Below, in pieces: positions 1,415 through 63,905 of a stretch of DNA of 64,000 bases. The notes under the pieces are model-generated. The model had not been told where the DNA came from and ran no database searches. It saw only the letters and a list, made by a program, of their open reading frames with translations. Origin of the DNA: Desulfatibacillum sp. (GTDB lineage Bacteria > Desulfobacterota > Desulfobacteria > Desulfobacterales > SpSt-501); NCBI GenBank assembly GCA_020725555.1, contig DYEU01000018.1, forward strand, positions 79,113-143,112, written 5' to 3'. The position numbers and the translations under genes were made by a program. The first letter of the stretch is position 1. Every line of letters starts with the position of its first letter.

Positions 1415-1428
1415 CTCGCTGCCTCCTC

Positions 1429-21694: not shown

Positions 21695-21766
21695 GGGCGC
21701 AAGAACGGGATCGGCCGAGACCGCGGGCATGCTTCCGCGACACCGTATGCCGAAGGGAGAGTCGCC

Positions 21767-22363: not shown

Positions 22364-22381
22364 CGTCGATCCGGAGGGGTC

Positions 22382-22987
22382 ATGGCCGCACGCATCGTGC
22401 AGGAATTCACCAAGGGGCTCTGGAAGGAGATCGCGCCCCTGCGCTTCGCCCTGGGCATCTGCTCCGCGCTGGCCGTTTCCACCCGCGTGGACAACGCGCT
22501 CGGGCTGGGGATCGCCGTCGTCTTCGTGACCTGCATGAGCAACGTCCTCATCTCGCTCGTCCGGAACCTCGTCCCCGACAAGGTCCGCATCGCCGTGTTC
22601 ATCAGCATCATCGCCACCGCGGTCGTGATCGTGGAGCTCGTGATGCAGGCCTATTTCTACCCGCTCTTCCTCGTGCTGGGCATCTGGATCCCGCTCATCG
22701 TGGTGAACTGCATCGTGCTCGGCCGCGCCGAGGCCTTCGCCCGCAAAAACCCGGTCGCGCTCTCCCTGGCGGACGGGCTGGGCATGGGCCTGGGGTTCAC
22801 GCTCTCGCTGCTCGTCATCGCGAGCATCCGCGAGGTGCTCGGGAGCGGGAGCTGGCTGGGAATCGCGGTCCTCCCCGACGGCTACCCGGGGTTCGGGTTC
22901 CTGCTGCGGCCGCCGGGGGCGTTTGTGATCTTCGGGGTCCTTCTGGCCGCCATGAACGTCGTCTCCAAACGTCTCGAGAAACGGTAA
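22382..22987 (+). CDS. rnfE: Rnf complex subunit E
   Basis: 201-aa polytopic protein, RnfE-type N-terminus ...LWKEIAPLRFALGICSALAV. Confidence 0.9.
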   Translation: MAARIVQEFTKGLWKEIAPLRFALGICSALAVSTRVDNALGLGIAVVFVTCMSNVLISLVRNLVPDKVRIAVFISIIATAVVIVELVMQAYFYPLFLVLGIWIPLIVVNCIVLGRAEAFARKNPVALSLADGLGMGLGFTLSLLVIASIREVLGSGSWLGIAVLPDGYPGFGFLLRPPGAFVIFGVLLAAMNVVSKRLEKR

Positions 22988-23003
22988 CCCGGGAGAAACC
23001 GCC

Positions 23004-23585
23004 GTGCAGGACTACCTTCTGCTGATCATCGCGGCGATGTTCGTCAACAACATCGTCCTGATCCTCTTTCTGGGGAACTGCCCGCTCGTCGGGGTCACGA
23101 GCTCCATGGAGAGCGCCTTCGGCATGGGGGCCGCCGTCGTCTTCGTGACCACGCTCGCGGGGACCGCCTGCTGGATCGTGCAGCGCTTCGCCCTCGAGCC
23201 GCTCGCGCTCGAGTACCTCCAGACCCTCGTCTTCATCCTGATCATCGCGAGCCTCGTGCAGTTCGTGGAGATCGTCCTCCAGAAGGTGGCGCCCCCGCTC
23301 TACCGGACGCTCGGGATCTTCCTGCCCCTGATCACCACCAACTGCATGGTCTTCGGGGCGGCCATCCTGAGCATCAAGCGCGACTACACCTTTTTGCAGA
23401 CCCTCGTGTTCTGCCTCGCCGCCGCCGTGGGCTTCGCGCTCGTCCTGGTCTTCATGGCCGGGCTCCGCGAGCGCATGGAGGTTTCGGGGAGGATCCCCGC
23501 CGCGCTGCAGGGGGTCCCCATCACCATGATCACGGCCGGCATGATGGGGCTGAGTTTCGCCGGCCTGCTCGGTATGGCCCACTAA
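23004..23585 (+). CDS. rnfA: Rnf complex subunit A
   Basis: 193-aa polytopic protein; ...FVNNIVLILFLGNCPLVGV. Confidence 0.9.
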   Translation: MQDYLLLIIAAMFVNNIVLILFLGNCPLVGVTSSMESAFGMGAAVVFVTTLAGTACWIVQRFALEPLALEYLQTLVFILIIASLVQFVEIVLQKVAPPLYRTLGIFLPLITTNCMVFGAAILSIKRDYTFLQTLVFCLAAAVGFALVLVFMAGLRERMEVSGRIPAALQGVPITMITAGMMGLSFAGLLGMAH

Positions 23586-40790: not shown

Positions 40791-40806
40791 AGCAATTGCG
40801 ATGCCA
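40791..40806 (-). promoter_or_regulatory. sigma54 (-24/-12) promoter motif TGGCATCGCAATTGCT
   Basis: Exact match to TGGCA[CT]-N5-TTGC[AT] on the minus strand. It ends 12 nt before ATG 40778, and the intervening 12 nt contain the SD GAAGGAGGG. Confidence 0.6.
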
Positions 40807-41468: not shown

Positions 41469-43043
41469 GGAAGCCGGGGCCCCCCCGCCGCAACGGGACG
41501 GACTGAAGAACGGACCCGTATAACCCAAAGGATCCGCGCACCCAGGCGTTCGGGGAGTACCGGAGTTAGGCTTCCGGCCGGGGTTGACAGGGAAAGCGAG
41601 AGGGAACAACATGCACCCGACGGTGGGCGAAAATCGCGGGTCGCCCCTGGGGGATTCCATGGAGCCGGTTTGCGAAGAGAACGAGCGGCGCCACCACGAG
41701 CTCATCCTCGACAGCATCGAGGAAGGGGTCTTCACGGTCGACCTCACCTGGCGCATCACCTCCTTCAACCGCGCCGCGGAGAAGATCACCGGCGTCCCGC
41801 GGGCCGAGGCCGTCGGCCGCCCCTGCTTCGAGGTCTTCCGCGCCGACGTCTGCGAAACCGGCTGCATGCTGCGCCGCACGCTCGAGAGCGAAACGCCGGT
41901 CGCCAACGTCCTGGTCCACATTTTCCGCGCCGACAAGAAGCGCATCCCCATCCGCATCAGCACCGCCCTGCTCAGGGACCCCGCGGGCCGGCTGGTCGGG
42001 GGGGTCGAGACGTTTCAGGACGTGAGCGCCCTCCAGGAACTGCGGCGGGCCCTGCAGCGGCAGCACCGCTTCGAGGACATCGTGAGCAAGAACCCGCGCA
42101 TGCTCAAGATCTTCGCCATGCTCCCGCAGGTGGCCGAAAGCGGGAGCACGGTGCTGATCGAGGGGGCGAGCGGGACCGGCAAGGAGCTCGTGGCGCGGGC
42201 GATCCACCACCACAGCCCGCAGCGCGAGGGCCCCTTCGTCGCCGTGAACTGCGGGGCGCTCCCCGACACGCTGATCGAGGCCGAGCTCTTCGGCTACAAG
42301 GCCGGGGCCTTCACCGACGCACGGCGGGACCGGGCCGGCCGCTTCGCCCTGGCCCAGAACGGCACGATCTTTCTCGACGAGATCGGCGACATCTCCCCCG
42401 CGCTCCAGGTGCGGCTGCTGCGGGTGCTCCAGGAGCGGGTCTACGAGCCCCTCGGCGCGGGAAAGCCCGTCCCGACGAACGCCCGGGTGATCGCCGCCAC
42501 GCACCGCGACCTGAGCCGTCTTGTCCGCGAGGAGAAATTCCGCGAGGACCTCTACTTCCGGGTCAACGTCTTCAAGATCGCGCTGCCGCCGCTCGCCGAG
42601 CGCCGCGAGGACATCCCGCTGCTCGTCGAGCACTTCATCGACCGCTTCAACCACCGCAGGGGCCGAAACGTCGCCGGGGTCGCCCGCGAGGCGATGGAAG
42701 CGCTCCTGCACCACGACTGGCCGGGAAACGTGCGCGAGCTCGAAAACGCGATCGAGCACGCCTTCGTCCTCTGCCGCGACGACACGATCCGGCTGGAGGA
42801 TCTGCCCGAGCCTCTCCAGGCGGCCGCCGCATCGGGCCGACCGGCCGCCGCGACCACGCTGCGGGACATCGAGCGGGCGGCGATCCTTGCCGCCCTCGAG
42901 CGCCACGGCGGCCGCAAGCTCGCCGCCGCCCGCGAGCTCGGGGTCGACAAGAACACGCTGCGCCGCAAGATGATCCGCCTCGGCCTGCGGCCGCCCCCCG
43001 CCGCCCGGGGCGTCCGGCCTGACCGGGGCGGGCAACCGGCCCC

Positions 43044-46276
<3,233 letters not shown>

Positions 46277-49476: not shown

Positions 49477-50766
49477 TCAATCGGGAAGCGAGGCGGCGTA
49501 GAGTTCGACGGGGTGGCGGACGGCGATCGCGTCGCCCGCCTGCGAGAGCATGTCGGAAATCTGGAGCATGCAGGCCGGGCAGCCGGTCGCCACCACCTCG
49601 CAGCCGGTCGCGGCGATGCGCGCGCGCTTGAGCCGGCCGATCGCCTTCGACAGCTCGTAGTGCGCGAGGTTGAAGCTTCCGCCCATGCCACAGCAGTCGT
49701 CGGACCCCTCCATCTCCCTCAAGGCCCAACCGCCCGCGGCACGGATCAGCTCCCGCGGCTCGGCGAAGACGCCCAGCGATTTCTTGAGGTGGCAGGGATC
49801 GTGCACGGTGACGACCCGGCCTTCCCGGCCTGCACCGGGCGCCCCCGCGACCCCCAGGCGCCGCACGAGAAACTGCGAGATGTCCATCGTCTTCTCCGCG
49901 AGCGCGCGGGCGCGCGCGGCGACGGGCCCCTCGCAAAGCGCGGGCCAGAGTTTTTTCAGCGTCGCGGTGCAGGTCGCGCAACAGGTGACCAGCACATCGA
50001 AGCGGCCGGGGTCGAACAGATCCAGGTGCCACGCGACCAACCGCCGGAAGGTCGCGAGATCCCCGCCGGAGAGGGCCGGGATGCCGCAGCACCCCTGCCC
50101 CGGGGGGACGAAAACGCCCGCGCCGCGGTGGTCGAGCACGCGCAGGGCGGCTTCGGCCACGGAAGGGAAGATCTTGTCGATCAGGCAGCCGGTGAACAGG
50201 GCGACCCGCGGCCCCCCCTCGCGCGGGGGCGTCTCCCGCGAGGGGCAGCGGCGGTGAAAGGGCTCGGCGGCGAGCGGCCGGAAGTGTCTTCCTGCGAGAA
50301 CCGGCGCCGGGATGCGGCCGCAGGAGGTGCCCACCGTCTCGTTCACCGGCCGGGCGAGGAGTCTCTGGAAGACGGCCGCAAACGCGACGGCGCGGTCCAG
50401 GACCCGGGGATGCGCGAGCAGGCGGCGGAAGATCGCCTTTTTGGCGGGCGAAAGCCCGAGGTAACCCGCGAGAATCGCCCGGGCTTTCAAAAAGATGCCG
50501 AGCGCGTTCACCCCGCTCGGGCATTGGGCGGCGCAGCTGCCGCAGAGGAGACAGCGCTCCAGCCTGGCGCGCACGCCCTCGGGGTCCTCGAGCATCGCCT
50601 GGAGAAGGCCGTCGAGCAAGGCGAGCTTGCCGCGGGCGACGTCGGCCTCGCGGCCGGTCTGGCCGAAGACGGGGCAGACGGCCTGGCACATGCCGCAGCG
50701 CATGCAGACCACGAGTTCCTCTTCCAGCCCCCGCAACAGGCCGCGCAGCGTCGCCAGGTCCGCCAT
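49477..50766 (-). CDS. (Fe-S)-binding CCG-domain oxidoreductase (GlcF/HdrD-like partner of the FAD oxidase)
   Basis: CMRCGMCQAVCP and CLLCGSCAAQCP ferredoxin motifs plus two CCG motifs (GCCGIPA, DCCGMGG). Confidence 0.85.
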   Translation of the reverse strand: MADLATLRGLLRGLEEELVVCMRCGMCQAVCPVFGQTGREADVARGKLALLDGLLQAMLEDPEGVRARLERCLLCGSCAAQCPSGVNALGIFLKARAILAGYLGLSPAKKAIFRRLLAHPRVLDRAVAFAAVFQRLLARPVNETVGTSCGRIPAPVLAGRHFRPLAAEPFHRRCPSRETPPREGGPRVALFTGCLIDKIFPSVAEAALRVLDHRGAGVFVPPGQGCCGIPALSGGDLATFRRLVAWHLDLFDPGRFDVLVTCCATCTATLKKLWPALCEGPVAARARALAEKTMDISQFLVRRLGVAGAPGAGREGRVVTVHDPCHLKKSLGVFAEPRELIRAAGGWALREMEGSDDCCGMGGSFNLAHYELSKAIGRLKRARIAATGCEVVATGCPACMLQISDMLSQAGDAIAVRHPVELYAASLPD

Positions 50767-50803
50767 GGTCTCGGGTTCCTCCCGCTCGAGGGGCCGGCCG
50801 CGC

Positions 50804-52192
50804 TCAGGCCGGGGCCGGGATGATCTTTCCCGGGTTGAGGATGTTTCCGGGGTCGAGCGCCTTCTTGATGCGCTGCGAATAGAGAATCGTGGCCGCGGTT
50901 GTCTCGCGGTCGAGGAAGCAGGCCTTGGCGATCCCCGTGCCGTGCTCCCCGGAGAGGGTCCCCCCCAGGGCCAGCGCGCGGTCGAAGATCGCGGCGATCG
51001 CCCGCTCCACGCGCGCCCACTCTTCCCGGTCGCGCTTGTCCGTCAGGATGGTGGGGTGGAGGTTCCCGTCGCCCGCATGGCCGAAGGTGCCGATCGCGAG
51101 GCGGAATTCCCGCGCGATCTCGTCGATCGCCCGCACCATGTCGGGGATGCGGCTGCGGGGGACGGTTGCGTCCTCGAGGACCAGGGTCGGTTTCAGCTTG
51201 GCGAGCGCGGAGAGCGCGCTGCGGCGGGCTTCCCAGACCTTGTTGCGCTCGGCGGCGCCGCGCGCGACGCGCAGGGATGCGGCTCCGTGCCGGCGGCAGA
51301 GTTCCTCCACGCGCGAGGCGTCCTCGGCCACCTGGGCGGGGTGACCGTCCACCTCGATCAGCAGCAGGGCCGCCGCCTCGACCGGGAGGCCCGCGCGGCT
51401 GTACTCCTCGACGGCGCGGATCGTGAATTGGTCCATGAACTCGAGGGTCGCCGGGACGATGCGCGCGGCGATGATCGCGGCGACCGTCTCCGAGGCGGCC
51501 TCCGGCCGGTCGAAGACCGCCATCATCGCCTGCTGCGCGGCCGGCAACGGGATCAGCTTGAGGGTGATGCGGTGGAAGACCCCCAGGGTGCCCTCCGAGC
51601 CCACCAGCAGGCCGGCCAGGTTGTAGCCGGTCGCGCATTTCACGGTGCGCGAGCCGGTCTTGATCGTCTCGCCGCGGGCGTCGAAGAATTCGAGCCCCAT
51701 GACGTAGTCGCGCGTGACCCCGTACTTCAGCCCTCGGAGGCCGCCCGCGTTCTCGGCGACGTTGCCGCCGAGCGTGGACACGGCCTGGCTGCCCGGGTCC
51801 GGCGGGTAAAAGAGGCCGCGCGCCTGGACGGCGGCGGCGAATTTCGCCGTGACCACGCCGGGCTCGACCACGGCGTAGAGGTCTTCCTCGTTCAGCTCGA
51901 GGATGCGGTTGAGGCCGTTGGTCACGACCACCACCCCGCCGGGCAGGGGAACGGTGCCGCCGCTCAGGTTGGTCCCCGCCCCCCGCACCGTGAGGGGAAT
52001 CCCGTTTTCGCCGCACAGGCGCACCGCGGCGGCGAGCGCCTCCCCCGAGGTCGGCCGCACCACGAGGCCGGGCATCACCTGCTCGAGGGGGGCGGCGTCG
52101 TAGGCGTAGGTCAGCCGGTCGGCCTCGGCGGCAAAGACGGCGTCTTTTCCGAACACGGCTTCGAATTCACGGATCAGGGCTCCGCGGATCAT
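50804..52192 (-). CDS. FAD-binding oxidase (GlcD / D-lactate dehydrogenase family)
   Basis: From Met34 of ORF 50804..52291: MIRGALIREFEAVFG...; RGAGTNLSGG FAD-PCMH motif; C-terminal GTLSGEHGTG and LNPGKI. Confidence 0.88.
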   Translation of the reverse strand: MIRGALIREFEAVFGKDAVFAAEADRLTYAYDAAPLEQVMPGLVVRPTSGEALAAAVRLCGENGIPLTVRGAGTNLSGGTVPLPGGVVVVTNGLNRILELNEEDLYAVVEPGVVTAKFAAAVQARGLFYPPDPGSQAVSTLGGNVAENAGGLRGLKYGVTRDYVMGLEFFDARGETIKTGSRTVKCATGYNLAGLLVGSEGTLGVFHRITLKLIPLPAAQQAMMAVFDRPEAASETVAAIIAARIVPATLEFMDQFTIRAVEEYSRAGLPVEAAALLLIEVDGHPAQVAEDASRVEELCRRHGAASLRVARGAAERNKVWEARRSALSALAKLKPTLVLEDATVPRSRIPDMVRAIDEIAREFRLAIGTFGHAGDGNLHPTILTDKRDREEWARVERAIAAIFDRALALGGTLSGEHGTGIAKACFLDRETTAATILYSQRIKKALDPGNILNPGKIIPAPA

Positions 52193-52250
52193 CGTTGCGG
52201 TCCTTTCCCCCCTGCGGCCGCCGGCCGCACCGCCGGCCGCAGGCATCCCC

Positions 52251-53063
52251 TCAGAGGGGATGGTCGAAGGTGACATGCACGCTCTCGGCACCCGCGAGCG
52301 TGGCGAGCGCCTGCACCTTCTCCACGAGTTTCGGCTTCTCCAGAAGCAGGGTGTGGAGGGAGAAGCCGGTGATGAGGTGCACGCGGGCCGCGCCCCGCTC
52401 CACCGTGACCGTGAAGCGCGGAAACTCCTCGATCAGGTAGGATTCCACCTGGGCTTCGAGAACGCGGTCGTTCAGCAGCCGCTTGGCCTCGGGCGTCATC
52501 CGAAAGGACGGCAAGGCGGCCGCCTCGGCGAGAAGCCGCGCGGCGTCCTCGACCGTCAGGGTCCCGATGTGCAAGAGCACATCGTACAGCCCGGGGTCGG
52601 CCGGGTCCATCCCGTAGAGGCTGAGCGCCCAGCGGCGCCGCTCCTCGTCGTCGCGGAGCACCCGCTCGCGGGCTTTTTCCGCGGTCGACCCCGATTGTTC
52701 CATTTCCTCGCGGATGCGCTCCTCGAGGTCGGCGAAGACCCGGGCCTTCAGGACAGCCGGGATGCCGCGCAGGAAAAAATGGCCGGCGTAGCCGTGGTAG
52801 ACCACGTTGTCCTTCTGCACCTCGCGCAGGAGCGCGGTGCGGATGAAGGCGATGTACTTGCGGCGATCCCGGCCGAGCCGCTCGAGCAGCGAGGGCGCCT
52901 CCTCGATCGCCCGCGTCAGGCGCAGCTCCGGGATGTCGAAGATCTTCGAGGCCTCGAGCAGCACCTCGCGCGAAATGCAGGCGCAGCCCAGCCGGGCCGC
53001 CGCCCGCTCGGCCACCTCGCTGCCGCGCCGGTAGCAGCCGCGGGACACGATGACGATGGCCAT
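52251..53063 (-). CDS. cytidylate-kinase-like family protein
   Basis: From Met109 of ORF 52251..53387 after GGAAGGAGG: MAIVIVSRGCYRRGSEVAERAA...DVLLHIGTLTVEDAARLL. The P-loop looks degenerate. Confidence 0.6.
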   Translation of the reverse strand: MAIVIVSRGCYRRGSEVAERAAARLGCACISREVLLEASKIFDIPELRLTRAIEEAPSLLERLGRDRRKYIAFIRTALLREVQKDNVVYHGYAGHFFLRGIPAVLKARVFADLEERIREEMEQSGSTAEKARERVLRDDEERRRWALSLYGMDPADPGLYDVLLHIGTLTVEDAARLLAEAAALPSFRMTPEAKRLLNDRVLEAQVESYLIEEFPRFTVTVERGAARVHLITGFSLHTLLLEKPKLVEKVQALATLAGAESVHVTFDHPL

Positions 53064-54960: not shown

Positions 54961-57047
54961 ATGGGCGCTTGCACCCGTCACCCCGATCGAGAAACGCGCT
55001 TCCAATGCCTGAAGCACGGCATCTGGATGTGCGAGGAATGCCTGGCCTGCCGCGACCCCGAACTGTACTGCAAGCACCGCTCCGCCTGCCCGATCTGGTT
55101 CATGGCAAAACGCCGCCGGCGCCAGGAGCAGGAGGAACAGGCCGCTTCCGCCGCCCGGCGCGTACACGTCAGGTTCGAACCGGAAGGCAAGACCGCCGAG
55201 GTGCCGGCCGGCGCCACCCTCCTGGAAGCCGCGGCGGCAGGAGGCGTCCACGTGAACGCCTCCTGCAGCGGCAAAGGCCTGTGCGGCAAGTGCAAGCGGG
55301 TGGTGGAATCGGGAGAGCTCGACAGGGAACCGACGGCGCTTCTCCGCGATGCGGAAACGCAAAAGCGCTGCGTGCCGGCCTGCCAGAGCCGGCTGCGGGG
55401 CGACGCCGTGGTCCGCATCCCGCCGGAGGCGATCGAGCGCAAGCTGAAGGTGGCCGGGATGGGCCGGGAAGCCACCTCGCGCCTGAAGGGGCGGGTCTGC
55501 CGGATCGATCCCCTGCTGCGGGAAATCCCGCTCGAACTCCCGCCGCCGACGATCGAAGACGCCGTCAGCGACCTGGACCGTATCAACCGCGCGCTCAAGC
55601 AGCACGGCGGTGACAGCGAGAAGCTTCACGTGGGGCTCACGGTGATGCGGCAACTCGCCGAGGCTGTGCGGGAAGGGCACTGGAAAGTGACCGCGTCGGT
55701 TGTCCGGCACGGCGGCTTCGACGAACTGCGGGAGGTTCGTCCCGGCGACGGCAACGAACCCTGCCTGGGGCTGGCCATCGACGTGGGGACCACGACGATC
55801 GTGGTCTATCTCGTGGACATGGCCGACGGCCGGATTCTTGCGGCCACCTCGGGCCACAACCGTCAGGCGGCCTGCGGCGACGACGTCATCAACCGCATCG
55901 TGTGCGCCGAAACGGAGGGGTGCGCAAGTTGAGCGAGATGGCGCTCGCCACCATCAACGGCCTGATCGGCGAGGCACTCGACAGCGCCGGGGCGCACGTG
56001 CGCCGGGTCAAGAACATCGTCGTGGCCGGCAACACGGTCATGACCCACCTGCTCCTGCAGATCGAACCCCGCTACATCCGCCGCACCCCCTACATCCCCA
56101 CGGTCGCGGAGTTTCCGATCCTCGAGGCCGGAACCATCGGACTCAAGGCCCATCCGGCCGCCGCCGTGTTCGTGATGCCCGGACCGGCCAGCTACGTGGG
56201 CGGCGACATCGTCGCCGGCGTCCTCTCCTCCGGCCTGCACCGCGAAGCCCCGCTCACGCTGTTCATTGACGTGGGGACCAACGGAGAAATCGTCCTCGGC
56301 AACCATGAGTGGATGCTGACCGCCGCCTGCAGCGCCGGACCGGCCTTCGAGGGCGGCGGCATCCGCTGGGGCATGCGCGCCGAAGCGGGGGCGATCGAGG
56401 CCGTGCGCATCCATCCCGAGACCGGGGAGCCGCAGATCCGTACCGTCGGCGGGGAGCCGCCGCGGGGGATCTGCGGCACGGGGATGATCGAGCTGATCGC
56501 GGAAATGCTCGCCGCCGGGATCATCGACCGCAGCGGGGCCTTCTCCGCGGACCGCGCCCACCCCCGGGTCCGCCGGATCCAGGACGAGTGGGCCTACATT
56601 CTGGTCCCCGCCGACCGCTCGCCGGTGGAAGAGGACATCGCCTTCAGCGCCTCCGACCTCCGCAACCTTCTCTACAGCAAGGCCGCCGTCTATGCCGGCC
56701 TGCGGACGCTGCTGCGCGAAGCCGGGCTGGAACCAGCCGCGGTGGAGCGCATCTGGATCGCCGGGGGCTTCGGACAATCCCTGGACGTCGACAAGGCGGT
56801 CCGCGTCGGGCTGCTCCCCGACCTGGAGCGCGGCCGCTTCCGCTATCTCGGAAACAGCACGATCGCCGGGGCCTACCTGTCGCTGCTGCCCGAGGCGTCC
56901 CGGCGGCAAGCGCGGGAGATCTGCCGTGCCATGACCTACCTCGATCTCTCCAGCCATCCCGGCTCTATGGAGGAGTTCACGTCGGCCCTGTTTCTGCCGC
57001 ACACCCACCTGGAGGCGTTTCCCAGCGCGACCCGCGCGGGCGCCTGA
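54961..57047 (+). pseudogene. RACo-type corrinoid-activation ASKHA ATPase (B-box-like Zn finger + 2Fe-2S ferredoxin + DUF4445/ASKHA), interrupted by a -1 frameshift in a G4 run near 55917-55920
   Basis: ORF 54961..55932 ends ...ACGDDVINRIVCAETEG-CAS*. ORF 55902..57047 continues in the -1 frame with ...GGVRKLSEMALATINGLIGEAL...FIDVGTNGEIVLG...CSAGPAFEGGGI...ICGTGMIEL. One extra G in gagGGGGtgc would fuse them into one protein of about 695 aa. Confidence 0.8.
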
Positions 57048-57070
57048 CGATTCACCCGGCCGTTGTCGTG

Positions 57071-57093
57071 GCCCGGGGGAGAAACACCCGGGC
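57071..57093. terminator. GC-rich hairpin between convergent genes (possible bidirectional terminator)
   Basis: GCCCGGG-GGAGAAACA-CCCGGGC, a 7-bp stem. No clear U-tract. Confidence 0.25.
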
Positions 57094-57194
57094 ACCCCTC
57101 GTCCGCTTCTTGGATCTTCTCCCGCCCGCGCGCCGGGCGGACCGGATTGCCGGAAAACGAGGCCGACCCCGGGATCCCGTCGGGGAAGAACCCC

Positions 57195-57692
57195 TCATCC
57201 GCCGAAGCGACGTTCGAGGGTGGACCCGCAGCCGGGACACCGCAACTTGAAGCACGGAAGGCCCTGATCCTCCTCGCTGCGGTAGCCGCAGCGCTCGCAG
57301 AAGCACCAGCCTGCGGGGTTGGGGCGGGAGGGGGGGGAGAGGGCCGGGGAAGCAGCAACCTTCTCGGCCGCCGGGGCGGCGTGGGCGGGAAAGGCGGGGA
57401 GGTGGTCCCGAATGGCCCCGCGCCGGCCTTCTTCGATCGCGATGCCGACCGCTTCAAGGACGGCCTTGGCGTTCGGGCCGGCGCTTCCGGTGATCACCCG
57501 CTCCACCCCCGCTGCGACCAGTGCCTCCGCGGCGCGGACGCCGGCACCGCCCGAGGCCTTCGCGCCCGGGTTGGGCTCGACGCGAAACGCCCCGCTTGCG
57601 AGATCCACGATCAAAAAATTCCGGCAGCGTCCGAGCGCGGGCTCGATCGGATCCTCGAGCGAACTTCCCTGGGTGGAAAAGGCGATTTTCAC
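57195..57692 (-). CDS. NifX/NifB-type domain protein fused to a C-terminal zinc ribbon
   Basis: GTG start (VKIAFSTQGSSLEDPIEPALGRCRNFLIVD...) after AAGGAGA. ...VITGSAGPNAKAVLEAVGI. Tail CFCERCG...CPGCG. Confidence 0.75.
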   Translation of the reverse strand: MKIAFSTQGSSLEDPIEPALGRCRNFLIVDLASGAFRVEPNPGAKASGGAGVRAAEALVAAGVERVITGSAGPNAKAVLEAVGIAIEEGRRGAIRDHLPAFPAHAAPAAEKVAASPALSPPSRPNPAGWCFCERCGYRSEEDQGLPCFKLRCPGCGSTLERRFGG

Positions 57693-57813
57693 GCGCGTCT
57701 CCTTGGGGCCGGGATGCAACGAACCGCGCCCGGCCCGGGCGCGAGCCCGCCTGGGCAAGGAGCCGGCCGGCGCTCCGCAGGGTGCGCTTCCGCAACCGGC
57801 CGGCCGCCGCGCG

Positions 57814-59133
57814 TCATTTGGCGGACTCCGGGTGAAACACCGCCACCTCCCTCAGGTCGTCTCCCAGGTAAGCCCGCTCGTTGGGGCCGAGGATCCCCAG
57901 CGCCAGGCAAAGGAGCGTCCAGAGGTGAATCACGTGGTAGCCCCCGCCGTAATGTTCGCTCAGTTCATGGATCTGGGCATGGCAGTTGTGGCAACCGGCG
58001 ATGCAGTACTGCGCGCCGGTCGCCCGGATCTGCTCGTCCTTGAGTCGGCCGAACTCGAGGCGCTGGGCCTTGAACCCCGATTGGAGAAACCCCCCGCCGC
58101 CGCCGCAGCAATAGTTGTTGGAGCGGTTGGGCTGCATGTCGATGAAGTTTTCCTCCCCCACCGCCGTCTTGACCACGAAGCGCAGGTCCTCGGCGATCGG
58201 ATCGCCGTAACTCTTGCGGACGATCTGGCAGGGGTCCTGGACCGTGAACTTGATCTTCAGGTCCCGGTTCCAATCGGCGTTGACCTTGAGCCGGCCCTCC
58301 CGGATCCACCGGGCGTAGTATTCGTAGATGTTTTTGACCGTGAACGTGTGCTCGATCTTGAATTTTTTCAGTCCTTCCAGGACCGAAAAGGTGACGTGCC
58401 CTCACTCGGTGTTGAGAAAGACCTTGCACCCCAACTCTTCGGCCTGCCGGGCCGCCGTCGCCGTGATGTGCTTCCAGGCCGCGTCGTCGCCCAGGAACAT
58501 GCAGTAATTCTCGCCACCCCAGCCCTTGGAGCCGTAGGTCCAGTCCGCACCGGCCAGATGCAGCAGCTTCCACAGGGGCACCATTTCGTCGGGTTCGGTC
58601 ACCGGCTCGCGCGAGTTCTGGTTGAGGAAGAATTCGGCCCCCGCCTTGTCAATGGGCGCCTCCATGGCGGCGAATTCCGGCTGCGCCTCGCGGTACTCCG
58701 CCAAGACGTCTTCGACCACGAAGCGGAAGTCCTCGGGCGAGGCGCCCATGGCGCTGCAGCTGTCGTTGCGCAAGGCCATGTCGCACGAACCGCGGATCCC
58801 TTTCGGGCGCTTTTCCCGGGGCCAGGCGGCACGCACGTTGTAGACCAGCCGTGGAATGTCGATTTTCATCGGGCAGACGTAGATGCATCGCTGGCATTGC
58901 GTGCACATCCAGACCCAGTCCGTGGCGAGGATCTCCTCGTCCAGGCCAAGGGCGGCCATGCGCAGAAACTTGCGCGGGTCCAGGCCCTCCAGCCCCGTCG
59001 CCGGGCAACCCGAGGAGCAGGCGCCGCAGGTGAGGCACAGGTTGAGATGGCCGCCTTCCGGGAGAATCTCCCGGACCTTTTCCATGAATGTCGTGCGTCG
59101 TTTTCCCCCCAAGCGAATGACGGTCTCCTCCAT
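57814..59133 (-). CDS. HdrD-like Fe-S oxidoreductase (2x[4Fe-4S] + two CCG domains), selenoprotein; in-frame UGA at 58402-58404 read as Sec
   Basis: The last 243 codons of ORF 58402..60786 (MEETVIRLGG...CLTCGACSSGCP...CTQCQRCIYVCP...KVFLNTE) stop at TGA. The same frame continues GHVTFSVLEGLKKF... into ORF 57814..58176 (NYCCGGGGG, CIAGCHNC). GAGGAGGAG RBS before ATG 59133. Confidence 0.85.
58365..58389 (-). promoter_or_regulatory. strong candidate SECIS hairpin for the hdrD-like UGA
   Basis: RNA UUUUCGGUCC-UGGAA-GGACUGAAAA (10-bp stem with one G-U pair, 5-nt loop) begins 13 nt after the UGA. The loop occupies UGA+23..+27. Confidence 0.65.
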
Positions 59134-59239
59134 CGGCGCTCCTCCTCGTGGTGGCGGGTGGCGGGGTTCACCCCGGGATTTCCGACCCGGACAAAGGCAA
59201 GTTTCCCCGGCCTGCGCCCGGGGCCTTGGAAGAGAAGCA

Positions 59240-59255
59240 AGCAAGACACATGCCA
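59240..59255 (-). promoter_or_regulatory. sigma54 (-24/-12) promoter TGGCATGTGTCTTGCT upstream of the hdrD-like selenoprotein gene
   Basis: Exact match to TGGCA[CT]-N5-TTGC[AT]. About 95-nt leader to ATG 59133. It lies 112-125 nt downstream of a TTGC-N5-GCAA palindrome and just after the activator gene. Confidence 0.7.
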
Positions 59256-59381: not shown

Positions 59382-60743
<1,362 letters not shown>

Positions 60744-60901: not shown

Positions 60902-60917
60902 TGGCACCGCCTTTGCA
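60902..60917 (+). promoter_or_regulatory. sigma54 (-24/-12) promoter TGGCACCGCCTTTGCA
   Basis: Full consensus TGGCAC-N5-TTGCA. It ends exactly 12 nt before ATG 60930. Confidence 0.7.
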
Positions 60918-60929: not shown

Positions 60930-61331
60930 ATGCGGATTGCTGTCGCCCACTGGCAAGGCCGGATTTCTCCGGTCTTCGATGAAGCGCAGGATCTCTGGGT
61001 GGTGACGGTCGACGGCGGCCGGGAGATCGGGCGCGACCGCCTGCGGCTCAGGACGCGCAACCTCTTGGATCGGGTGCGAATCCTCTGCGAGCAGGAAATC
61101 GAGGTCCTGCTCTGCGGGGCGATCTCCTTTTCCCTGGAGCACGCTCTGGAAGCCGCGGGCATCCGGGTCGTGGGTTTCCTCGCCGGGGAGTGCGAACCGA
61201 TTCTCGTCTCGTTTCTCAACGCCCGCGGCCACGCCGCCGGCCCGGTGCGTTTCGCGACGCGACGGCGATTCCCCCGGCCGGAGCCCCGGCAGGGCAAGGC
61301 CCGCCCGCCGACATCCGGCCGCGGGCGATGA
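60930..61331 (+). CDS. NifX/NifB-type domain protein (133 aa)
   Basis: Last part of ORF 59148..61331: MRIAVAHWQGRISPVFDEAQDLWVV...VLLCGAISFSLEHALEAAGIRVVGF. Confidence 0.75.
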   Translation: MRIAVAHWQGRISPVFDEAQDLWVVTVDGGREIGRDRLRLRTRNLLDRVRILCEQEIEVLLCGAISFSLEHALEAAGIRVVGFLAGECEPILVSFLNARGHAAGPVRFATRRRFPRPEPRQGKARPPTSGRGR

Positions 61332-61363
61332 CCCGCGAAACCTCTACCTGGGAGATGAACGCC

Positions 61364-61981
61364 ATGAAAGTCGCCATCAGCGCCAGCGCACCTTCCCTCG
61401 AGGCCCCGCTGGATCCCCGATTCGGCCGTGCCCCGTGGTTCCTGATCGTCGATCCCGAAACCCTCGCCGTCGAGGAAATCGCCAATCCGGCCGCCTCCGG
61501 TGCCGGCGGCGCCGGCATTGAGGCGGCCCGGGCCATCGCCGCACGGGCGGTAACGAACGTGCTCACCGGCCGCTGCGGCCCGAATGCCGCAGCGGCGTTG
61601 TCCGCCGCGAACATCGTGTTCGTCGAGGGCTGTTCCGGAACGGCGCGCGAAGCCCTCGAGCGCTTTCTCGCCGCAGCCCCTCCGGCCGCGGAGGCCGGGC
61701 CGGCGGCGGGCCGTCCCGCCGCGGACCGCCTGCCGCAACCACCCGGCCCTGGACCCGGCGGCGCACCCCCCATGCGCGGCGGCGGGGGTCGCGGGGGATG
61801 CGGGCGGATGCGCGGCGGCGGCGGAGGACGCGGAGGGGGAGGCGGCGGGAGGGCGGGAAGTTTCGGTCCTCCCCGAACCCCCGTAGGCTCAACCCTCGAG
61901 GAAGAGGCCGAGCGGCTGCGCCGGCGGCTTGCGGAAATCGAAGAGCGTCGCGGAACGCGCATCCCGCCCTCCCGCCGGTGA
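61364..61981 (+). CDS. NifX/NifB-type domain fused to a Gly/Arg-rich linker and C-terminal coiled coil (DUF5320-like tail)
   Basis: From Met59 of ORF 61190..61981: MKVAISASAPSLEAPLDPRFGRAPWFLIVD...VLTGRCGPNAAAAL. Then GGGGRGGCGRMRGGGGGRGGGGGG and LEEEAERLRRRLAEIEERR. Confidence 0.75.
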   Translation: MKVAISASAPSLEAPLDPRFGRAPWFLIVDPETLAVEEIANPAASGAGGAGIEAARAIAARAVTNVLTGRCGPNAAAALSAANIVFVEGCSGTAREALERFLAAAPPAAEAGPAAGRPAADRLPQPPGPGPGGAPPMRGGGGRGGCGRMRGGGGGRGGGGGGRAGSFGPPRTPVGSTLEEEAERLRRRLAEIEERRGTRIPPSRR

Positions 61982-61992
61982 GCGGCAGGGTC

Positions 61993-63000
61993 ATGGCCGC
62001 TCGCCCGCCGCGTCCCCCGGAAGGGGGGTTCCTCTACGGCCCGGTCCCCTCGCGGCGCCTCGGGCGCTCGCTCGGCGTGGATCTCGTCCCGTTCAAGACC
62101 TGCAGCTACGATTGCGTCTACTGCCAGCTCGGGCGCACGACCTGCCGGACGCTCGAGCGCTCGGAGTACGTGCCGACGACGCAGGTCCTCGATGCGATCG
62201 CGGCATTTCGGCGAAGCGGCGCGGCCGCCGATTTCATCGGCATCGCCGGCTCCGGCGAGCCGACGCTGCACGCCGGGATCGGGGACATCATCGCCGGCAT
62301 CCGCCAACGGACGCGCCTCCCGGTCGCCGTGCTCACCAACGGCTCCTTGCTCTGGGACGCGGAGGTGCGGCGGGAGCTCTCCCGGGCGCACGTGGTGATT
62401 CCTTCGCTGGACGCCGGCGGGCCGCGAACCTTCCGTCGCGTCAACCGCCCCCACCCCGGGCTCGCATTCGAAACGGTGGTGGAGGGGCTGGCCGCGTTCG
62501 CCGCCGGGTTCCGGGGAGAGATCTGGCTCGAAGTCATGTTCGTCGCCGGGATCAACACCGACCTGCGCGAGGTCCGCCGCATCGCCCGCCTGGCCGACCG
62601 CATCGGCCCGCGGCGCATCCAGCTCAACACCGTCGTCCGGCCGCCCGCCGAGCGCTTTGCACGCCCCGTCCCGCGGGAAGATCTCGCGCGGCTGGCCCGC
62701 TGCCTGGGCGGGAGGGCGGAATGCATCGCCGACTTCCGACCGGACGCAGAGACCGCGACACCCCGCAGCCGGGCGGGTGAGCGAGCGATTCTGGAATTGC
62801 TCGCCCGCCGCCCCTGTACGGTATCGGGGATCGCCGACGGGCTCGCCATCCATCCTCAGGAAGCCGTGAAGCGCCTGGACGATCTCCTGCGCCGGGGGCT
62901 CGTCGCGGTGAACGAGCGGGACGGCGAGCGCTACTTCGGCCTCAAGCGGATCCGCACGCCGCGGGTCCGCAGCGGCCTTCCGGAAAGGAGCCTTCCATGA
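61993..63000 (+). CDS. radical SAM protein (COG0731-like)
   Basis: From Met66 of ORF 61798..63000: MAARPPRPPEGGFLYGPVPSRRLGRSLGVDLVPFKTCSYDCVYCQ (CxxxCxxC), GSGEPTL. C-terminal winged-helix-like tail. Confidence 0.85.
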   Translation: MAARPPRPPEGGFLYGPVPSRRLGRSLGVDLVPFKTCSYDCVYCQLGRTTCRTLERSEYVPTTQVLDAIAAFRRSGAAADFIGIAGSGEPTLHAGIGDIIAGIRQRTRLPVAVLTNGSLLWDAEVRRELSRAHVVIPSLDAGGPRTFRRVNRPHPGLAFETVVEGLAAFAAGFRGEIWLEVMFVAGINTDLREVRRIARLADRIGPRRIQLNTVVRPPAERFARPVPREDLARLARCLGGRAECIADFRPDAETATPRSRAGERAILELLARRPCTVSGIADGLAIHPQEAVKRLDDLLRRGLVAVNERDGERYFGLKRIRTPRVRSGLPERSLP

Positions 63001-63905
63001 CCCGCACCCCCTCCTCCCCCTCTTCCTCCTGCGGCACCTGCGACCGGCCCGACTGCTCGGCCAAGGCCCCCCGGCCGGGGGAGGGCGAGGCCGAATTCGT
63101 CGAGCGCCGGGAACTCGAGGCACGCCTGTGCCGCATCCGACACCGCATCGTCGTCCTCTCGGGCAAGGGCGGCGTCGGGAAAAGCACGGTGGCCGTCAAC
63201 CTGGCCGCGGGGCTGCTGCAGGAAGGCCACACCGTCGGCCTGCTCGACGTGGACCTTCACGGCCCCAGCATCCCCACGATGCTCGGGCTGGAGCGGCAGC
63301 GTCTCGGCGGCAACGACCGGGAAATCCACCCCGCGGACGTGGGCGGGCTCAAGGTCGTCTCCATCGGCTTCTTTCTGTCCTCGCCGGACGACGCCGTCAT
63401 CTGGCGCGGGCCGCTCAAAATGGGGGCCATCAAGCAGTTTTTAAAGGACGTGGCCTGGGGTGATCTCGATTTCCTGGTGATCGACTCCCCGCCCGGGACC
63501 GGGGACGAACCGCTTTCGGTTTGCCAACTGATCGGGCGCCTGGACGGTGCGGTGATCGTGACCACCCCCCAGCGGGTGGCGGCGGTCGACGTGCGCAAGT
63601 CGATCACGTTCTGCCGCCACCTTCAGGTCCCGGTCCTGGGGGTCGTGGAGAACATGAGCGGTTTTGCCTGCCCGAAGTGCGGGGAGGTGACCCAGATCTT
63701 CCGGACCGGCGGCGGGCGCAGGATCGCCGAGGACATGGGGATCGCCTTCCTCGGGTCGATTCCGCTGGACCCGGCGCTCGCCGACTCCGGCGACGGCGGC
63801 GAGCCCTTCCTCCGCCGCCACGCCGACTCGCCGACGGCGGAGCGGCTGCGACGCTTAATCCGGCCCATCGCCGCGCTCGCCGCCGCAGAGCAGCGGCCGG
63901 CCTGA
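62997..63905 (+). CDS. Mrp/NBP35 (ApbC-like) P-loop ATPase, Fe-S cluster carrier family
   Basis: Deviant Walker A SGKGGVGKST, ...DSPPGTGDE..., CPKCG motif, N-terminal CGTCDRPDC. ATGA overlap with the radical SAM stop. Confidence 0.88.
   Translation: MTRTPSSPSSSCGTCDRPDCSAKAPRPGEGEAEFVERRELEARLCRIRHRIVVLSGKGGVGKSTVAVNLAAGLLQEGHTVGLLDVDLHGPSIPTMLGLERQRLGGNDREIHPADVGGLKVVSIGFFLSSPDDAVIWRGPLKMGAIKQFLKDVAWGDLDFLVIDSPPGTGDEPLSVCQLIGRLDGAVIVTTPQRVAAVDVRKSITFCRHLQVPVLGVVENMSGFACPKCGEVTQIFRTGGGRRIAEDMGIAFLGSIPLDPALADSGDGGEPFLRRHADSPTAERLRRLIRPIAALAAAEQRPA

What the first reader, a model, noticed from the sequence alone, without database searches (positions are those of the whole stretch)
57814..59133. 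Third in-frame UGA in an HdrD-like CCG-domain Fe-S oxidoreductase, with a 10-bp hairpin downstream
243 codons (two CxxCxxCxxxCP motifs and the first half of a CCG domain) end ...KVFLNTE at TGA 58402-58404. 196 further in-frame codons supply the rest, including NYCCGGGGG and CIAGCHNC. Neither half is a sensible protein alone. The hairpin UUUUCGGUCC-UGGAA-GGACUGAAAA starts 13 nt after the UGA. Fe-S oxidoreductase (GlpC/HdrD-like) selenoproteins have been described in Deltaproteobacteria. This one is also under a consensus sigma54 promoter.
Basis: partly seen in the sequence, partly recalled or inferred. Interest (0 to 1): 0.65.

Follow-up and report, generated by a model that had tools for sequence, protein, structure and literature searches.

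The report
Selenocysteine gene for HdrD-like iron-sulfur reductase
The in-frame UGA is a genuine selenocysteine codon in an already catalogued family of iron-sulfur oxidoreductase selenoproteins of sulfate-reducing bacteria, and the selenocysteine replaces the cysteine that others have proposed as the catalytic residue of DsrK-type reductases.

Summary
Observation confirmed and interpretation supported. On the minus strand, 59133..57814 is one 439-codon gene with a single in-frame TGA (58404..58402). Coding phase runs unbroken across it. All 120 best full-length homologues have Cys there (NTE-C-GH). More than 120 Desulfobacterota genomes carry orthologues (64-83% identical) with TGA at the same codon. 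A hairpin 12 nt downstream (11 bp, GGA loop) is conserved in them with compensatory changes; two close Cys paralogues encode nearly the same peptide but lack it. Two other UGA sites in the window (HdrA, MvhD) can form hairpins with GG at the same offset.

The family is known: the "Fe-S oxidoreductase (GlpC)" selenoprotein, motif UGH (Zhang 2006; 2026 review), and Sec-HdrD4 of Desulfobacterium autotrophicum. New here is the residue mapping. U244 is the Cys of the T/GECGH motif of single-CCG HdrD-like proteins (DsrK, HmcF, TmcB), proposed in 2024 as their catalytic cysteine. The sigma-54 claim is partly supported: one mismatch to consensus, next to a PAS/sigma-54 activator gene, conserved only in a subclade. 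No Sec machinery lies in the window. A new member of a known kind; modest interest.

The parts
57814..59133 (-). Complete selenoprotein gene (439 codons including Sec244, plus stop): an HdrC-HdrB fusion ('HdrD-like') Fe-S protein with two [4Fe-4S] motifs, a degenerate N-terminal CCG-like region carrying Sec, and one intact C-terminal CCG motif
   Evidence: Translation. Pfam Fer4 30-92 and CCG 297-388. PDB: residues 2-102 match HdrC and 287-419 match HdrB. Continuous GC3 phase. Full-length homologues.
58402..58404 (-). UGA codon 244, read as selenocysteine; the column of the T/GECGH cysteine
   Evidence: Cys in 120/120 close homologues and 38/38 diverse relatives, including a bona fide DsrK and HmcF. 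TGA at the same codon in at least 120 genomes.
58365..58389 (-). SECIS-like hairpin: 5' arm 58389-58379, loop GGA 58378-58376, 3' arm 58375-58365. The conserved core stem is 58386-58379 paired with 58375-58368.
   Evidence: Fold. Conserved in 110 distinct orthologous sequences: covariation 0.184 vs 0.068 in shuffles (0/500) and at most 0.048 in slid controls. RNAalifold recovers the stem. Absent from close Cys paralogues.
59139..59147 (-). Shine-Dalgarno-like GAGGAGGAG, 5-7 nt before the ATG at 59133
   Evidence: Read directly from the sequence. Orthologues place the start 243 +/- 2 codons before the TGA.
59240..59255 (-). Sigma-54-type -24/-12 element TGGCATGTGTCTTGCT, ending 106 nt upstream of the ATG
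   Evidence: One mismatch to TGGCAC-N5-TTGCW. All three such motifs in the window lie in intergenic regions next to sigma-54 activator genes. Similar elements in 18/101 orthologous upstream regions vs 4/101 on the opposite strand.
59382..60743 (-). PAS / sigma-54 AAA+ / Fis-type HTH enhancer-binding protein gene, immediately upstream on the same strand; the likely regulator
   Evidence: Pfam. A homologous activator lies within 900 nt upstream in 20/76 orthologous loci, and in the same arrangement in L076.
57195..57692 (-). Downstream gene, possibly co-transcribed: Nitro_FeMo-Co (NifX/NifB-like) domain protein with a C-terminal Cys-rich tail. Not a conserved partner.
   Evidence: Pfam. No terminator-like site in the 121-nt gap. 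Homologue found near the orthologue in only 1 locus.

Best explanation
The gene encodes a soluble selenoprotein of the HdrD-like (HdrC-HdrB fusion) iron-sulfur oxidoreductase superfamily. This is the family catalogued as 'Fe-S oxidoreductase (GlpC)-like selenoprotein', motif UGH.

During translation, the hairpin 12 nt after UGA-244 acts as a bacterial SECIS. SelB carrying Sec-tRNA(Sec) binds its GG-containing apical loop and delivers selenocysteine to the UGA, giving one 439-residue polypeptide.

The protein has two ferredoxin-type [4Fe-4S] sites (Cys33-43 and Cys77-87) and one intact C-terminal CCG motif (C302, C342, C343, C381, C384), of the kind that binds a noncubane [4Fe-4S] cluster in HdrB and DsrK. 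Its N-terminal CCG motif has degenerated. Its only universally conserved cysteine position is occupied by Sec244, in the motif T-E-U-G-H. That position is the T/GECGH cysteine of DsrK, HmcF and TmcB.

Most likely mechanism: electrons pass through the two cubane clusters to the noncubane cluster, and the adjacent selenol acts as the redox-active nucleophile. It attacks a disulfide or (poly)sulfide substrate to form a selenosulfide intermediate, which the cluster resolves in one-electron steps.

Transcription here is probably sigma-54 dependent, under the adjacent PAS-domain activator.

Shown: the UGA/Cys correspondence, the recurrent TGA, the covarying hairpin, the domain architecture, and residue homology to the DsrK/HmcF Cys.
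Inferred: actual Sec insertion, cluster types, the catalytic role of Sec, the substrate, and sigma-54 control.
For: - One open frame with unbroken coding phase across the TGA. No in-frame start for 76 codons after it.
- Cys at the column in 120/120 homologues of 64-75% identity.
- The degenerate pattern L-N-T-E-TGA-G-H-x-T-[YF] hits at least 120 genomes, all Desulfobacterota, and all are full-length orthologues at 64-83% identity.
- Hairpin: 8 core pairs kept. The closing pair is GC:54 / UA:46 / GU:7. Pair 19-37 is UA:86 / GC:12. Pair 21-35 is AU:86 / GU:16 / UA:5 / GC:3 with none unpaired. Covariation is 0.184 vs 0.068 in shuffles (0/500), and slid controls reach at most 0.048. Some compensatory changes alter the encoded amino acid (L/R, L/Q, V/I).
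- Control: the Cys paralogues P0001 and P0002 encode SVRAGIKKF / AFRAGLEKF but keep only 4 of 8 pairs (MFE -4.6 / -7.1), against a Sec-form mean of 7.8 of 8 pairs and -13.7 kcal/mol.
- Same genome: the MvhD UGA hairpin has an identical apex CCU-GGA-AGG with its loop at +27..+29, as in the target. The HdrA UGA can form CUGGUCG-AGGU-CGGCCGG with GG at +27/+28.
- Literature: GlpC selenoprotein family (PMC1794560); motif 'UGH' (PMC13188914); soluble Sec-HdrD4 with non-Sec paralogues in D. autotrophicum (PMC2702500).
- Residue mapping: invariant column in A2. It aligns to the first Cys of TCPHC in the N-terminal CCG domain of PDB 9ojn_A, E = 3e-38. A bona fide DsrK (P0198, 451 bits vs cutoff 400) has GECGH and a bona fide HmcF (P0233, 927 vs 750) has TECGH at this column.
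- The catalytic role of this Cys was proposed in PMC10861901.
- Sigma-54.
Against: - No tRNA-Sec, selA, selB or selD lies in the 64-kb window, so Sec decoding in this organism is only inferred.
- The hairpin's folding energy in the single sequence is not better than shuffles (z = -1.3), and Rfam has no matching model.
- The HdrA hairpin used for the within-genome comparison is not the MFE structure (-10.2 vs -14.3 kcal/mol).
- The catalytic role of the T/GECGH Cys is itself only a published proposal, not demonstrated. The same paper notes the Cys might instead bind the cluster.
- The substrate is unknown. In about a third of orthologous loci the gene sits with metF/metV/hdrA, which points to an electron-relay role in a bifurcating complex. 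That context is absent in this window.
- The sigma-54 element has one mismatch, and the window-wide count of such motifs is not significant by itself (3 vs 0.88 expected; 9/100 shuffles reach 3).
Confidence: 0.88

Rival explanations
1. Sec244 is not a substrate-attacking nucleophile. It is a ligand or tuning residue of the noncubane Fe-S cluster, and the protein serves as the HdrBC-like electron-transfer module of a larger flavin-based bifurcating complex (HdrA / MvhD / MetFV type).
For: MetF (PF02219) or MetV (PF12225) directly follows the orthologue in about 25 of 71 loci, and an HdrA-like flavoprotein lies upstream in 16 of 76. The window encodes Sec-HdrA and Sec-MvhD elsewhere. PMC10861901 notes that the conserved Cys might bind the cluster and generate the open S = 1/2 state.
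Against: In this window the gene is 53 kb from hdrA/mvhD and has no metF/metV neighbour. Sec/Cys pairs in selenoproteins mostly mark redox-active catalytic residues (PMC1976440), although metal-ligand Sec also exists. The two roles are not mutually exclusive.
Confidence: 0.25
2. The UGA acts mainly as a selenium-dependent checkpoint. Without selenium, translation stops and releases a 243-residue HdrC-like ferredoxin fragment that has its own function or is simply degraded.
For: The N-terminal 243 residues contain both complete [4Fe-4S] motifs. Some genomes keep a Cys paralogue in tandem with the Sec gene, consistent with selenium-dependent alternatives. That backup idea was raised for D. autotrophicum.
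Against: The C-terminal 195 codons are under clear coding constraint (GC3 0.86) and are 64-83% conserved across orthologues, so the full-length product is the selected one. None of the 120 Sec-form loci fetched from genomes held a Cys copy within their 8 kb or less.
Confidence: 0.05
3. The TGA is a nonsense mutation or a sequencing error (TGC/TGT to TGA) in a Cys-type gene, that is, a pseudogene or artefact.
For: A single base separates TGA from TGC/TGT. Elsewhere in the window a RACo-like gene shows an apparent frameshift, so the sequence is not guaranteed to be error-free.
Against: TGA is at exactly this codon in at least 120 independent genomes, with full-length conservation on both sides. 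A covarying hairpin occurs only in the TGA forms. The window gene sits inside the largest all-Sec clade, 65 sequences.
Confidence: 0.02
4. These are two separate genes, an HdrC-like and an HdrB-like subunit, abutting at the TGA, as in organisms where HdrC and HdrB are distinct polypeptides.
For: HdrC and HdrB are separate proteins in methanogens (PDB hits). Gene callers split such loci into 243-aa and about 124-aa products.
Against: The split would fall inside the HdrB-like module, at residue 244, not at the HdrC/HdrB boundary near residue 105. There is no in-frame start for 76 codons after the TGA. All Cys homologues are single polypeptides.
Confidence: 0.01

Closest known systems
'Fe-S oxidoreductase (GlpC)-like' selenoprotein family of Deltaproteobacteria (Zhang, Romero, Salinas & Gladyshev 2006, PMC1794560; 2026 review PMC13188914, Sec motif 'UGH'); soluble Sec-containing HdrD4 of Desulfobacterium autotrophicum HRM2 (PMC2702500)
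   Same: A COG0247/GlpC-type protein with two 4Fe-4S motifs plus CCG. One Sec in a U-G-H motif. Found in Desulfobacterota. Cys paralogues coexist. A bacterial SECIS lies just after the UGA.
   Different: [quoted passage not shown] Here the gene stands alone, 53 kb from the Sec-hdrA/mvhD genes, behind a sigma-54-type promoter and a PAS activator gene. Identity to the reference sequence WP_174406253.1 could not be checked.
DsrK, HmcF and TmcB (cytoplasmic HdrD-like subunits of sulfate-reducer membrane complexes; Barbosa et al. PNAS 2024, PMC10861901)
   Same: Two cubane-cluster motifs. Only one intact CCG motif. A strictly conserved Cys from the lost motif within T/GECGH, which is the position occupied by Sec here. 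These are the nearest NCBIfam models.
   Different: Scores are far below the curated cutoffs (168/750, 160/735, 113/400 bits). There is no membrane cytochrome b / NrfD-type partner gene nearby. It has Sec instead of Cys. It carries an additional family-specific invariant Cys211 and Cys117.
HdrB/HdrC of HdrABC-MvhAGD (PDB 5ODC and others) and HdrD of HdrDE
   Same: The N-terminus aligns to HdrC and the C-terminus to the second CCG domain of HdrB. The overall layout is an HdrC-HdrB fusion, as in HdrD.
   Different: HdrB and HdrD have two complete CCG motifs binding two noncubane clusters. Here the first motif is reduced to a single Cys/Sec position.
Mycobacterial EtfD (PDB 9ojn; EMBO J 2026, PMC13083937)
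   Same: The best solved-structure match to the family profile (E = 3e-38, residues 29-413). Its N-terminal CCG domain supplies the residue mapping of Sec244, to the first Cys of its CxxC.
   Different: EtfD is a 1042-residue membrane protein linking ETF to menaquinone. It retains CxxC at that site and is not a selenoprotein.
HdrABC-MvhD-MetFV type methylene-tetrahydrofolate reductase gene clusters (known from acetogens; recalled from my own knowledge of Mock et al. 2014)
   Same: In roughly a third of orthologous loci the Sec-HdrD-like gene is directly followed by metF or metV and lies near an hdrA-like gene.
   Different: This is not the context in the window. The HdrBC role would be played by a fused, single-CCG, Sec-containing protein. 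No biochemical evidence exists.

Membership tests
Fe-S oxidoreductase (GlpC)-like selenoprotein family | In-frame UGA aligned with Cys in homologues | tested here: met
   120/120 close and 38/38 diverse homologues have Cys at the column.
Fe-S oxidoreductase (GlpC)-like selenoprotein family | Sec in the motif U-G-H | tested here: met
   NTE-U-GHV. The motif 'UGH' is listed in PMC13188914.
Fe-S oxidoreductase (GlpC)-like selenoprotein family | COG0247/GlpC-type architecture: 2 x [4Fe-4S] motif plus a cysteine-rich CCG domain | tested here: met
   Pfam Fer4_8 and CCG. HdrC/HdrB matches.
Fe-S oxidoreductase (GlpC)-like selenoprotein family | [quoted passage not shown] | tested here: met
   Hairpin 12 nt after the UGA, loop GGA, with the apical loop starting 23 nt after the UGA. 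It is conserved and covaries. The conserved apical-loop G is mentioned in PMC1794560. The numerical limits of bSECISearch are recalled from memory and were not checked.
Fe-S oxidoreductase (GlpC)-like selenoprotein family | Host genome has the Sec-decoding trait (selA, selB, selC, selD) | tested here: inconclusive
   None of these is in the window. Two other Sec-type UGA sites (HdrA, MvhD) give indirect support.
Fe-S oxidoreductase (GlpC)-like selenoprotein family | Sequence similarity to the reference member WP_174406253.1 | not testable with these tools
Fe-S oxidoreductase (GlpC)-like selenoprotein family | Location in a glpC-hdrA-frhD-frhG-frhA operon (typical but not obligatory) | tested here: not met
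   The neighbours are a sigma-54 activator and a NifX-like gene. The Sec-hdrA/mvhD genes lie 53 kb away.
DsrK / HmcF / TmcB (NCBIfam equivalogs) | Score at or above the curated HMM cutoff | tested here: not met
   HmcF 168 vs 750, TmcB 160 vs 735, DsrK 113 vs 400 bits.
DsrK / HmcF / TmcB (NCBIfam equivalogs) | Single intact CCG motif plus a conserved Cys in T/GECGH | tested here: met
   Invariant C302, C342, C343, C381, C384, with TE(U/C)GH at 242-246. Same column as GECGH in a bona fide DsrK and TECGH in a bona fide HmcF. Feature defined in PMC10861901.
DsrK / HmcF / TmcB (NCBIfam equivalogs) | Adjacent membrane partner genes (DsrM-type cytochrome b and the rest of the complex) | tested here: not met
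   No such genes flank the target.
HdrD (HdrDE) / HdrB | Two complete CX(n)CCGX(n)CXXC motifs | tested here: not met
   Only the C-terminal motif is complete. Pfam detects one CCG domain. The N-terminal region keeps only the U244 position across the superfamily.
GlpC (anaerobic glycerol-3-phosphate dehydrogenase subunit C) | NCBIfam equivalog score at or above cutoff, and glpAB neighbours | tested here: not met
   33.6 vs 278 bits and 28.8 vs 279.9 bits. There are no glpA/glpB genes nearby. 'GlpC' is only a COG label for this family.
Sigma-54-dependent operon | A -24 GG / -12 GC element with correct spacing upstream of the gene, plus a cognate enhancer-binding protein | tested here: met
   TGGCAT-N5-TTGCT at 59255-59240. 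An adjacent PAS/sigma-54/HTH_8 gene. Sequence evidence only: rpoN itself and transcription were not tested.

The most novel reading that the evidence does not exclude
The recurrent natural swap of Sec for Cys at the T/GECGH position, in at least 120 Desulfobacterota genomes, acts as an evolutionary marker. It would indicate that this residue is the redox-active nucleophile of all single-CCG HdrD-like reductases, including DsrK, the terminal reductase subunit of sulfate respiration. The soluble version in this window, controlled by sigma-54 and a PAS activator, would then be a stand-alone selenol-plus-noncubane-cluster reductase acting on a disulfide or polysulfide substrate that is still unidentified. 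No paper in the searchable library links selenocysteine with the ECGH motif.
Probability: 0.4. Interest if true: 0.5.

Novelty: new member of a known kind. Interest (0 to 1): 0.3.

Why it matters
For annotation, this gene and at least 120 orthologues are routinely split into a 243-aa "ferredoxin" and a CCG fragment (see the gene calls). Recognising the UGA as Sec restores one 439-residue enzyme.

For mechanism, Sec sits exactly on the cysteine recently proposed, but not proven, to be catalytic in DsrK, HmcF and TmcB. Sec/Cys pairs usually mark redox-active catalytic residues. That gives independent comparative support for the proposal and suggests a tractable soluble model protein for single-noncubane-cluster disulfide or trisulfide reduction.

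For physiology, the frequent linkage to metF, metV and hdrA in relatives suggests a role in Wood-Ljungdahl-linked electron flow in completely oxidising sulfate reducers. The family itself has been known since 2005-2006, so the finding is confirmatory and not a discovery.

Tried and rejected
- Rfam search at gathering threshold (whole window) and at E up to 10 (58300-58450): no hit. Curated models do not cover this short bacterial SECIS, so this says nothing either way.
- Looking up the 243-aa fragment in the assembly index: not on record. The source organism stays unidentified.
It was rerun with the homologue P0001.
- Internal-repeat mapping of the N-terminal CCG-like region onto the C-terminal CCG domain with hhalign: not significant, because alignment diversity was too low. 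It was replaced by a diverse profile against the PDB.
- A strict sigma-54 pattern upstream of orthologues matched only 5 of 100. So sigma-54 control is not a family trait; relaxed scoring shows it only in a subclade.
- The 410-aa minus-strand ORF at 55863-57095, first taken as a downstream neighbour, translates to junk. It was rejected in favour of a plus-strand RACo-like gene.
- The NifX-like downstream gene as a conserved partner: rejected, with only 1 locus showing it.
- A search for Cys copies inside the 120 Sec-form loci found none. Tandem Sec/Cys pairs were seen only in L121/L122 and L123.
- Structure prediction was not run. The tool returns no coordinates, so distances between Sec244 and the CCG cysteines could not have been measured.
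Full report
**Observation.** The feature lies on the minus strand. The frame that starts at ATG 59133 is preceded by GAGGAGGAG. It runs for 243 sense codons (…LGCKVFLNTE) to TGA 58404-58402, then for 195 more codons (GHVTFSVLEGLKKF…) to the stop at 57816-57814. Pfam finds a 4Fe-4S dicluster domain at residues 30-92 and a CCG domain at 297-388. Third-codon-position GC stays high in one phase from about 57800 to 59000, straight across the TGA. There is therefore no frameshift and no gene boundary there. The first in-frame start codon after the TGA is 76 codons downstream, so the second half cannot be translated on its own. A systematic scan finds exactly three in-frame TGAs in the window with coding signal on both sides, excluding an ordinary stop between two back-to-back transporter genes. 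They are 4296-4294 (FPTCDCAM\*IISPKLVE, in HdrA), 1216-1214 (VSG\*HPGECHY, in an MvhD/VhuD-like protein) and the target.

**Is the UGA a Sec codon?** The 120 best database homologues are single polypeptides of 412-532 aa at 58-75% identity, and all 120 have Cys at the UGA column, in N/S-T-E-C-G-H. Gene callers truncate at UGA, so Sec forms cannot appear in that list. I therefore scanned one genome per species directly with the degenerate DNA pattern for L-N-T-E-TGA-G-H-x-T-[YF]. Every locus encodes a protein that aligns with the window protein through the TGA, at 64-83% identity. That is closer than the best Cys forms. On a neighbour-joining tree of 93 Sec and 120 Cys forms only about three Sec/Cys switches are needed, and the window gene lies in the largest all-Sec clade of 65 sequences. 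A sequencing error or private nonsense mutation is thus excluded.

**SECIS.** In the window the RNA after the UGA is 12 nt of spacer followed by UUUUCGGUCCU-GGA-AGGACUGAAAA (58389-58365). By itself this fold is no better than shuffled sequence (z = -1.3). Across 110 distinct orthologous 48-nt segments, however, the eight core pairs are almost always maintained. The closing pair is G-C in 54 sequences, U-A in 46 and G-U in 7. The bottom core pair is U-A in 86 and G-C in 12. A third pair is A-U 86, G-U 16, U-A 5 and G-C 3, and is never unpaired. The covariation score is 0.184 against 0.068 ± 0.006 for column shuffles (0 of 500 reach it) and at most 0.048 when partners are slid by 1-3 columns. 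RNAalifold recovers the same stem on its own. Several compensatory changes alter the encoded residue (Leu/Arg, Leu/Gln, Val/Ile), so RNA pairing is being selected over protein sequence. As a control, the two closest Cys forms encode almost the same peptide after the Cys (SVRAGIKKF, AFRAGLEKF). They keep only 4 of the 8 pairs and have no hairpin there (MFE -4.6 and -7.1 kcal/mol, against a Sec-form mean of 7.8 pairs and -13.7). Within the same genome, the MvhD-like UGA is followed by AUUACCU-GGA-AGGUAAU. It has the same apex (CCU-GGA-AGG) and its loop is at exactly the same offset (+27 to +29). The HdrA UGA can form CUGGUCG-AGGU-CGGCCGG with GG at +27/+28, although that is not its MFE fold. A shared apical GG at a fixed distance is what one SelB reading three mRNAs would require. 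Rfam has no model that matches.

**What the protein is.** By sequence against the PDB, residues 2-102 match HdrC and residues 287-419 match the second CCG domain of HdrB. The protein is thus an HdrC-HdrB fusion, the layout called HdrD. Invariant cysteines in 213 family members are:
- 33, 36, 39, 43 and 77, 80, 83, 87 (two cubane sites);
- 302, 342, 343, 381, 384 (one complete CCG motif);
- 117, 211 and position 244.

A search of the 50%-identity representative library gave full-length relatives down to 27% identity. In 38 of 38 the column of residue 244 is Cys, within (T/S/G/P)-E-C-G-H, whereas Cys211 is specific to the narrow family. A profile of this alignment hits PDB 9ojn_A at E = 3e-38 over residues 29-413. 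That entry is the mycobacterial EtfD 'iron-sulfur-binding reductase', whose structure papers appear. The match aligns column 244 to the first Cys of T-C-P-H-C, the CxxC of the N-terminal CCG domain. NCBIfam places the protein nearest to HmcF, TmcB and DsrK, but far below their cutoffs (168/750, 160/735, 113/400 bits). Two members of my alignment do pass the cutoffs. P0198 is a DsrK (451 bits vs 400) with GECGH at this column, and P0233 is an HmcF (927 vs 750) with TECGH there.

**Link to published mechanism.** Barbosa et al. (PNAS 2024, PMC10861901) point out that DsrK, HmcF and TmcB have only one CCG motif. They also note that one cysteine of the 'missing' noncubane-cluster motif is strictly conserved in a T/GECGH motif. 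They propose that it is essential for disulfide or trisulfide reduction, or possibly binds the cluster. Sec244 in T-E-U-G-H is that residue. That paper does not mention selenocysteine, and no paper in the searchable library contains both 'selenocysteine' and 'ECGH'. My best mechanistic reading is therefore as follows. Electrons flow through the two cubane clusters to a noncubane [4Fe-4S] cluster at the C-terminal CCG motif. The neighbouring selenol then attacks a disulfide or (poly)sulfide substrate. This is inference from homology. Neither the cluster, the substrate nor Sec insertion has been observed here.

**Is it known?** Yes.
- It recurs in the Olavius symbiont metagenome (PMC1976440).
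- It is listed in 2022 and 2026 reviews, the latter giving its Sec motif as 'UGH'.
- The D. autotrophicum HRM2 genome paper reports a soluble Sec-containing HdrD4 alongside non-Sec paralogues (PMC2702500).

The window gene is a new member of that family. 'GlpC' is only a COG label: the true GlpC models score about 30 bits against cutoffs near 280.

**Genomic context and regulation.** Immediately upstream on the same strand is a PAS / sigma-54-AAA+ / HTH_8 activator gene (59382-60743). Downstream is a Nitro_FeMo-Co (NifX-like) domain gene (57195-57692), with no terminator-like site between it and the target. TGGCAT-N5-TTGCT lies at 59255-59240, ending 106 nt before the ATG. The window-wide count of such motifs (3 vs 0.88 expected) is not significant alone. 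However, all three lie in intergenic regions next to the window's two sigma-54 activator genes. Among orthologues, a homologous activator lies within 900 nt upstream in 20 of 76 loci (usually divergent; same strand in L076). A -24/-12 element scoring at least 9 of 11 occurs upstream in 18 of 101 loci, against 4 of 101 on the opposite strand. Sigma-54 control is thus plausible for a subclade but is not a family trait (strict pattern in only 5 of 100). Other recurrent neighbours of the orthologues are:
- MetF (PF02219) directly downstream in 18 of 71 loci;
- MetV-MetF in about seven more loci;
- an HdrA-like flavoprotein upstream in 16 of 76.

This recalls HdrABC-MvhD-MetFV methylene-tetrahydrofolate reductase clusters (my own knowledge). 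None of these neighbours flanks the window gene. The Sec-hdrA/mvhD genes are 53 kb away.

**Limits.** The window holds no tRNA gene and no selA, selB or selD among the ORFs scanned. The organism is unidentified. The window is 70.5% G+C, whereas the orthologous loci have a median of 51.5% and a maximum of 63.8%.

**Verdict.** This is a correctly recognised member of an already catalogued selenoprotein family. The added value is threefold: a quantified SECIS, a demonstration that the family's Sec form is widespread, and the mapping of Sec onto the proposed catalytic cysteine of DsrK-type reductases. Interest is modest (0.3).

Noticed in passing
window 986-4460, minus strand (TGA at 4296-4294 and 1216-1214): A large HdrA (about 1000 aa) has Sec in [14 protein letters not shown]. 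It is followed by an MvhD/VhuD-like gene with Sec in VSG-U-HPGECHY and then a Fer4 protein (31-981). The MvhD hairpin apex CCU-GGA-AGG and its offset from the UGA are identical to those of the target gene.
   Followed up: partly
window 54961-57047, plus strand (frame change near 55900-55932): A RACo-like corrinoid-protein activator gene is split between two frames. Fer2 + linker + RACo_middle positions 1-50 end at 55932. RACo_middle positions 52-162 + the ASKHA C-terminal domain continue in another frame from 55902. This is an apparent frameshift: a sequencing error, a pseudogene or programmed.
   Followed up: partly
window 60902-60917 (+), 40791-40806 (-), 41584-43092 (+): A perfect sigma-54 motif, TGGCACCGCCTTTGCA, points into a cluster of a NifX-like gene (61190-61981), a radical-SAM+HTH gene (61798-63000) and a NUBPL/Mrp ATPase gene (62997-63905). 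A second PAS/sigma-54 activator (41584-43092) sits beside another sigma-54-like motif. All three motifs in the window flank activator genes.
   Followed up: partly
L121 3924-5250 and 5701-7023; L123 6001-7320 and 7822-9140: In two genomes (Ca. Magnetomoraceae gMMP-15 and an ENA metagenome contig), a Sec-form and a Cys-form copy of this gene sit in tandem. The Cys copies are 80-84% identical to Sec forms and have lost the hairpin. This is consistent with recent Sec-to-Cys conversion after duplication, or with a backup for selenium limitation.
   Followed up: partly
orthologous loci, e.g. L067, L008, L021, L079, L117: The Sec-HdrD-like gene is frequently followed directly by metF and/or metV and lies near an hdrA-like gene, often with a divergent sigma-54 activator. 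Several genomes hold two Sec-type copies in different contexts (e.g. L008/L035, L036/L046, L077/L118, L082/L112).
   Followed up: partly
window 49486-52291, minus strand: A canonical GlpC/HdrD-like protein with two CCG-domain matches and an all-Cys active site (49486-50766) lies next to an FAD-linked oxidase (50804-52291). The pair resembles a lactate or glycolate dehydrogenase. It is only 30% identical to the target over its CCG domain.
   Followed up: no
whole window versus L001-L123: The window is 70.5% G+C, and the target gene 63.2%. The 123 related loci have a median of 51.5% and a maximum of 63.8%. The host is an unusually GC-rich relative, or the gene may have been acquired from a lower-GC lineage. 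The organism was not identified.
   Followed up: no
window 59379-59367, minus strand: A short palindrome, TTGCA-TGT-TGCAA, lies about 110 nt upstream of the -24 element. It is a candidate binding site for the adjacent activator. With 5-nt arms it could easily be chance.
   Followed up: no
window 19410-23585, plus strand: Part of an Rnf complex operon (RnfC-like, an FMN_bind RnfG-like protein and two Rnf-Nqr membrane subunits). Together with an aldehyde:ferredoxin oxidoreductase gene at 7657-9486, this fits a ferredoxin-centred anaerobic energy metabolism.
   Followed up: no
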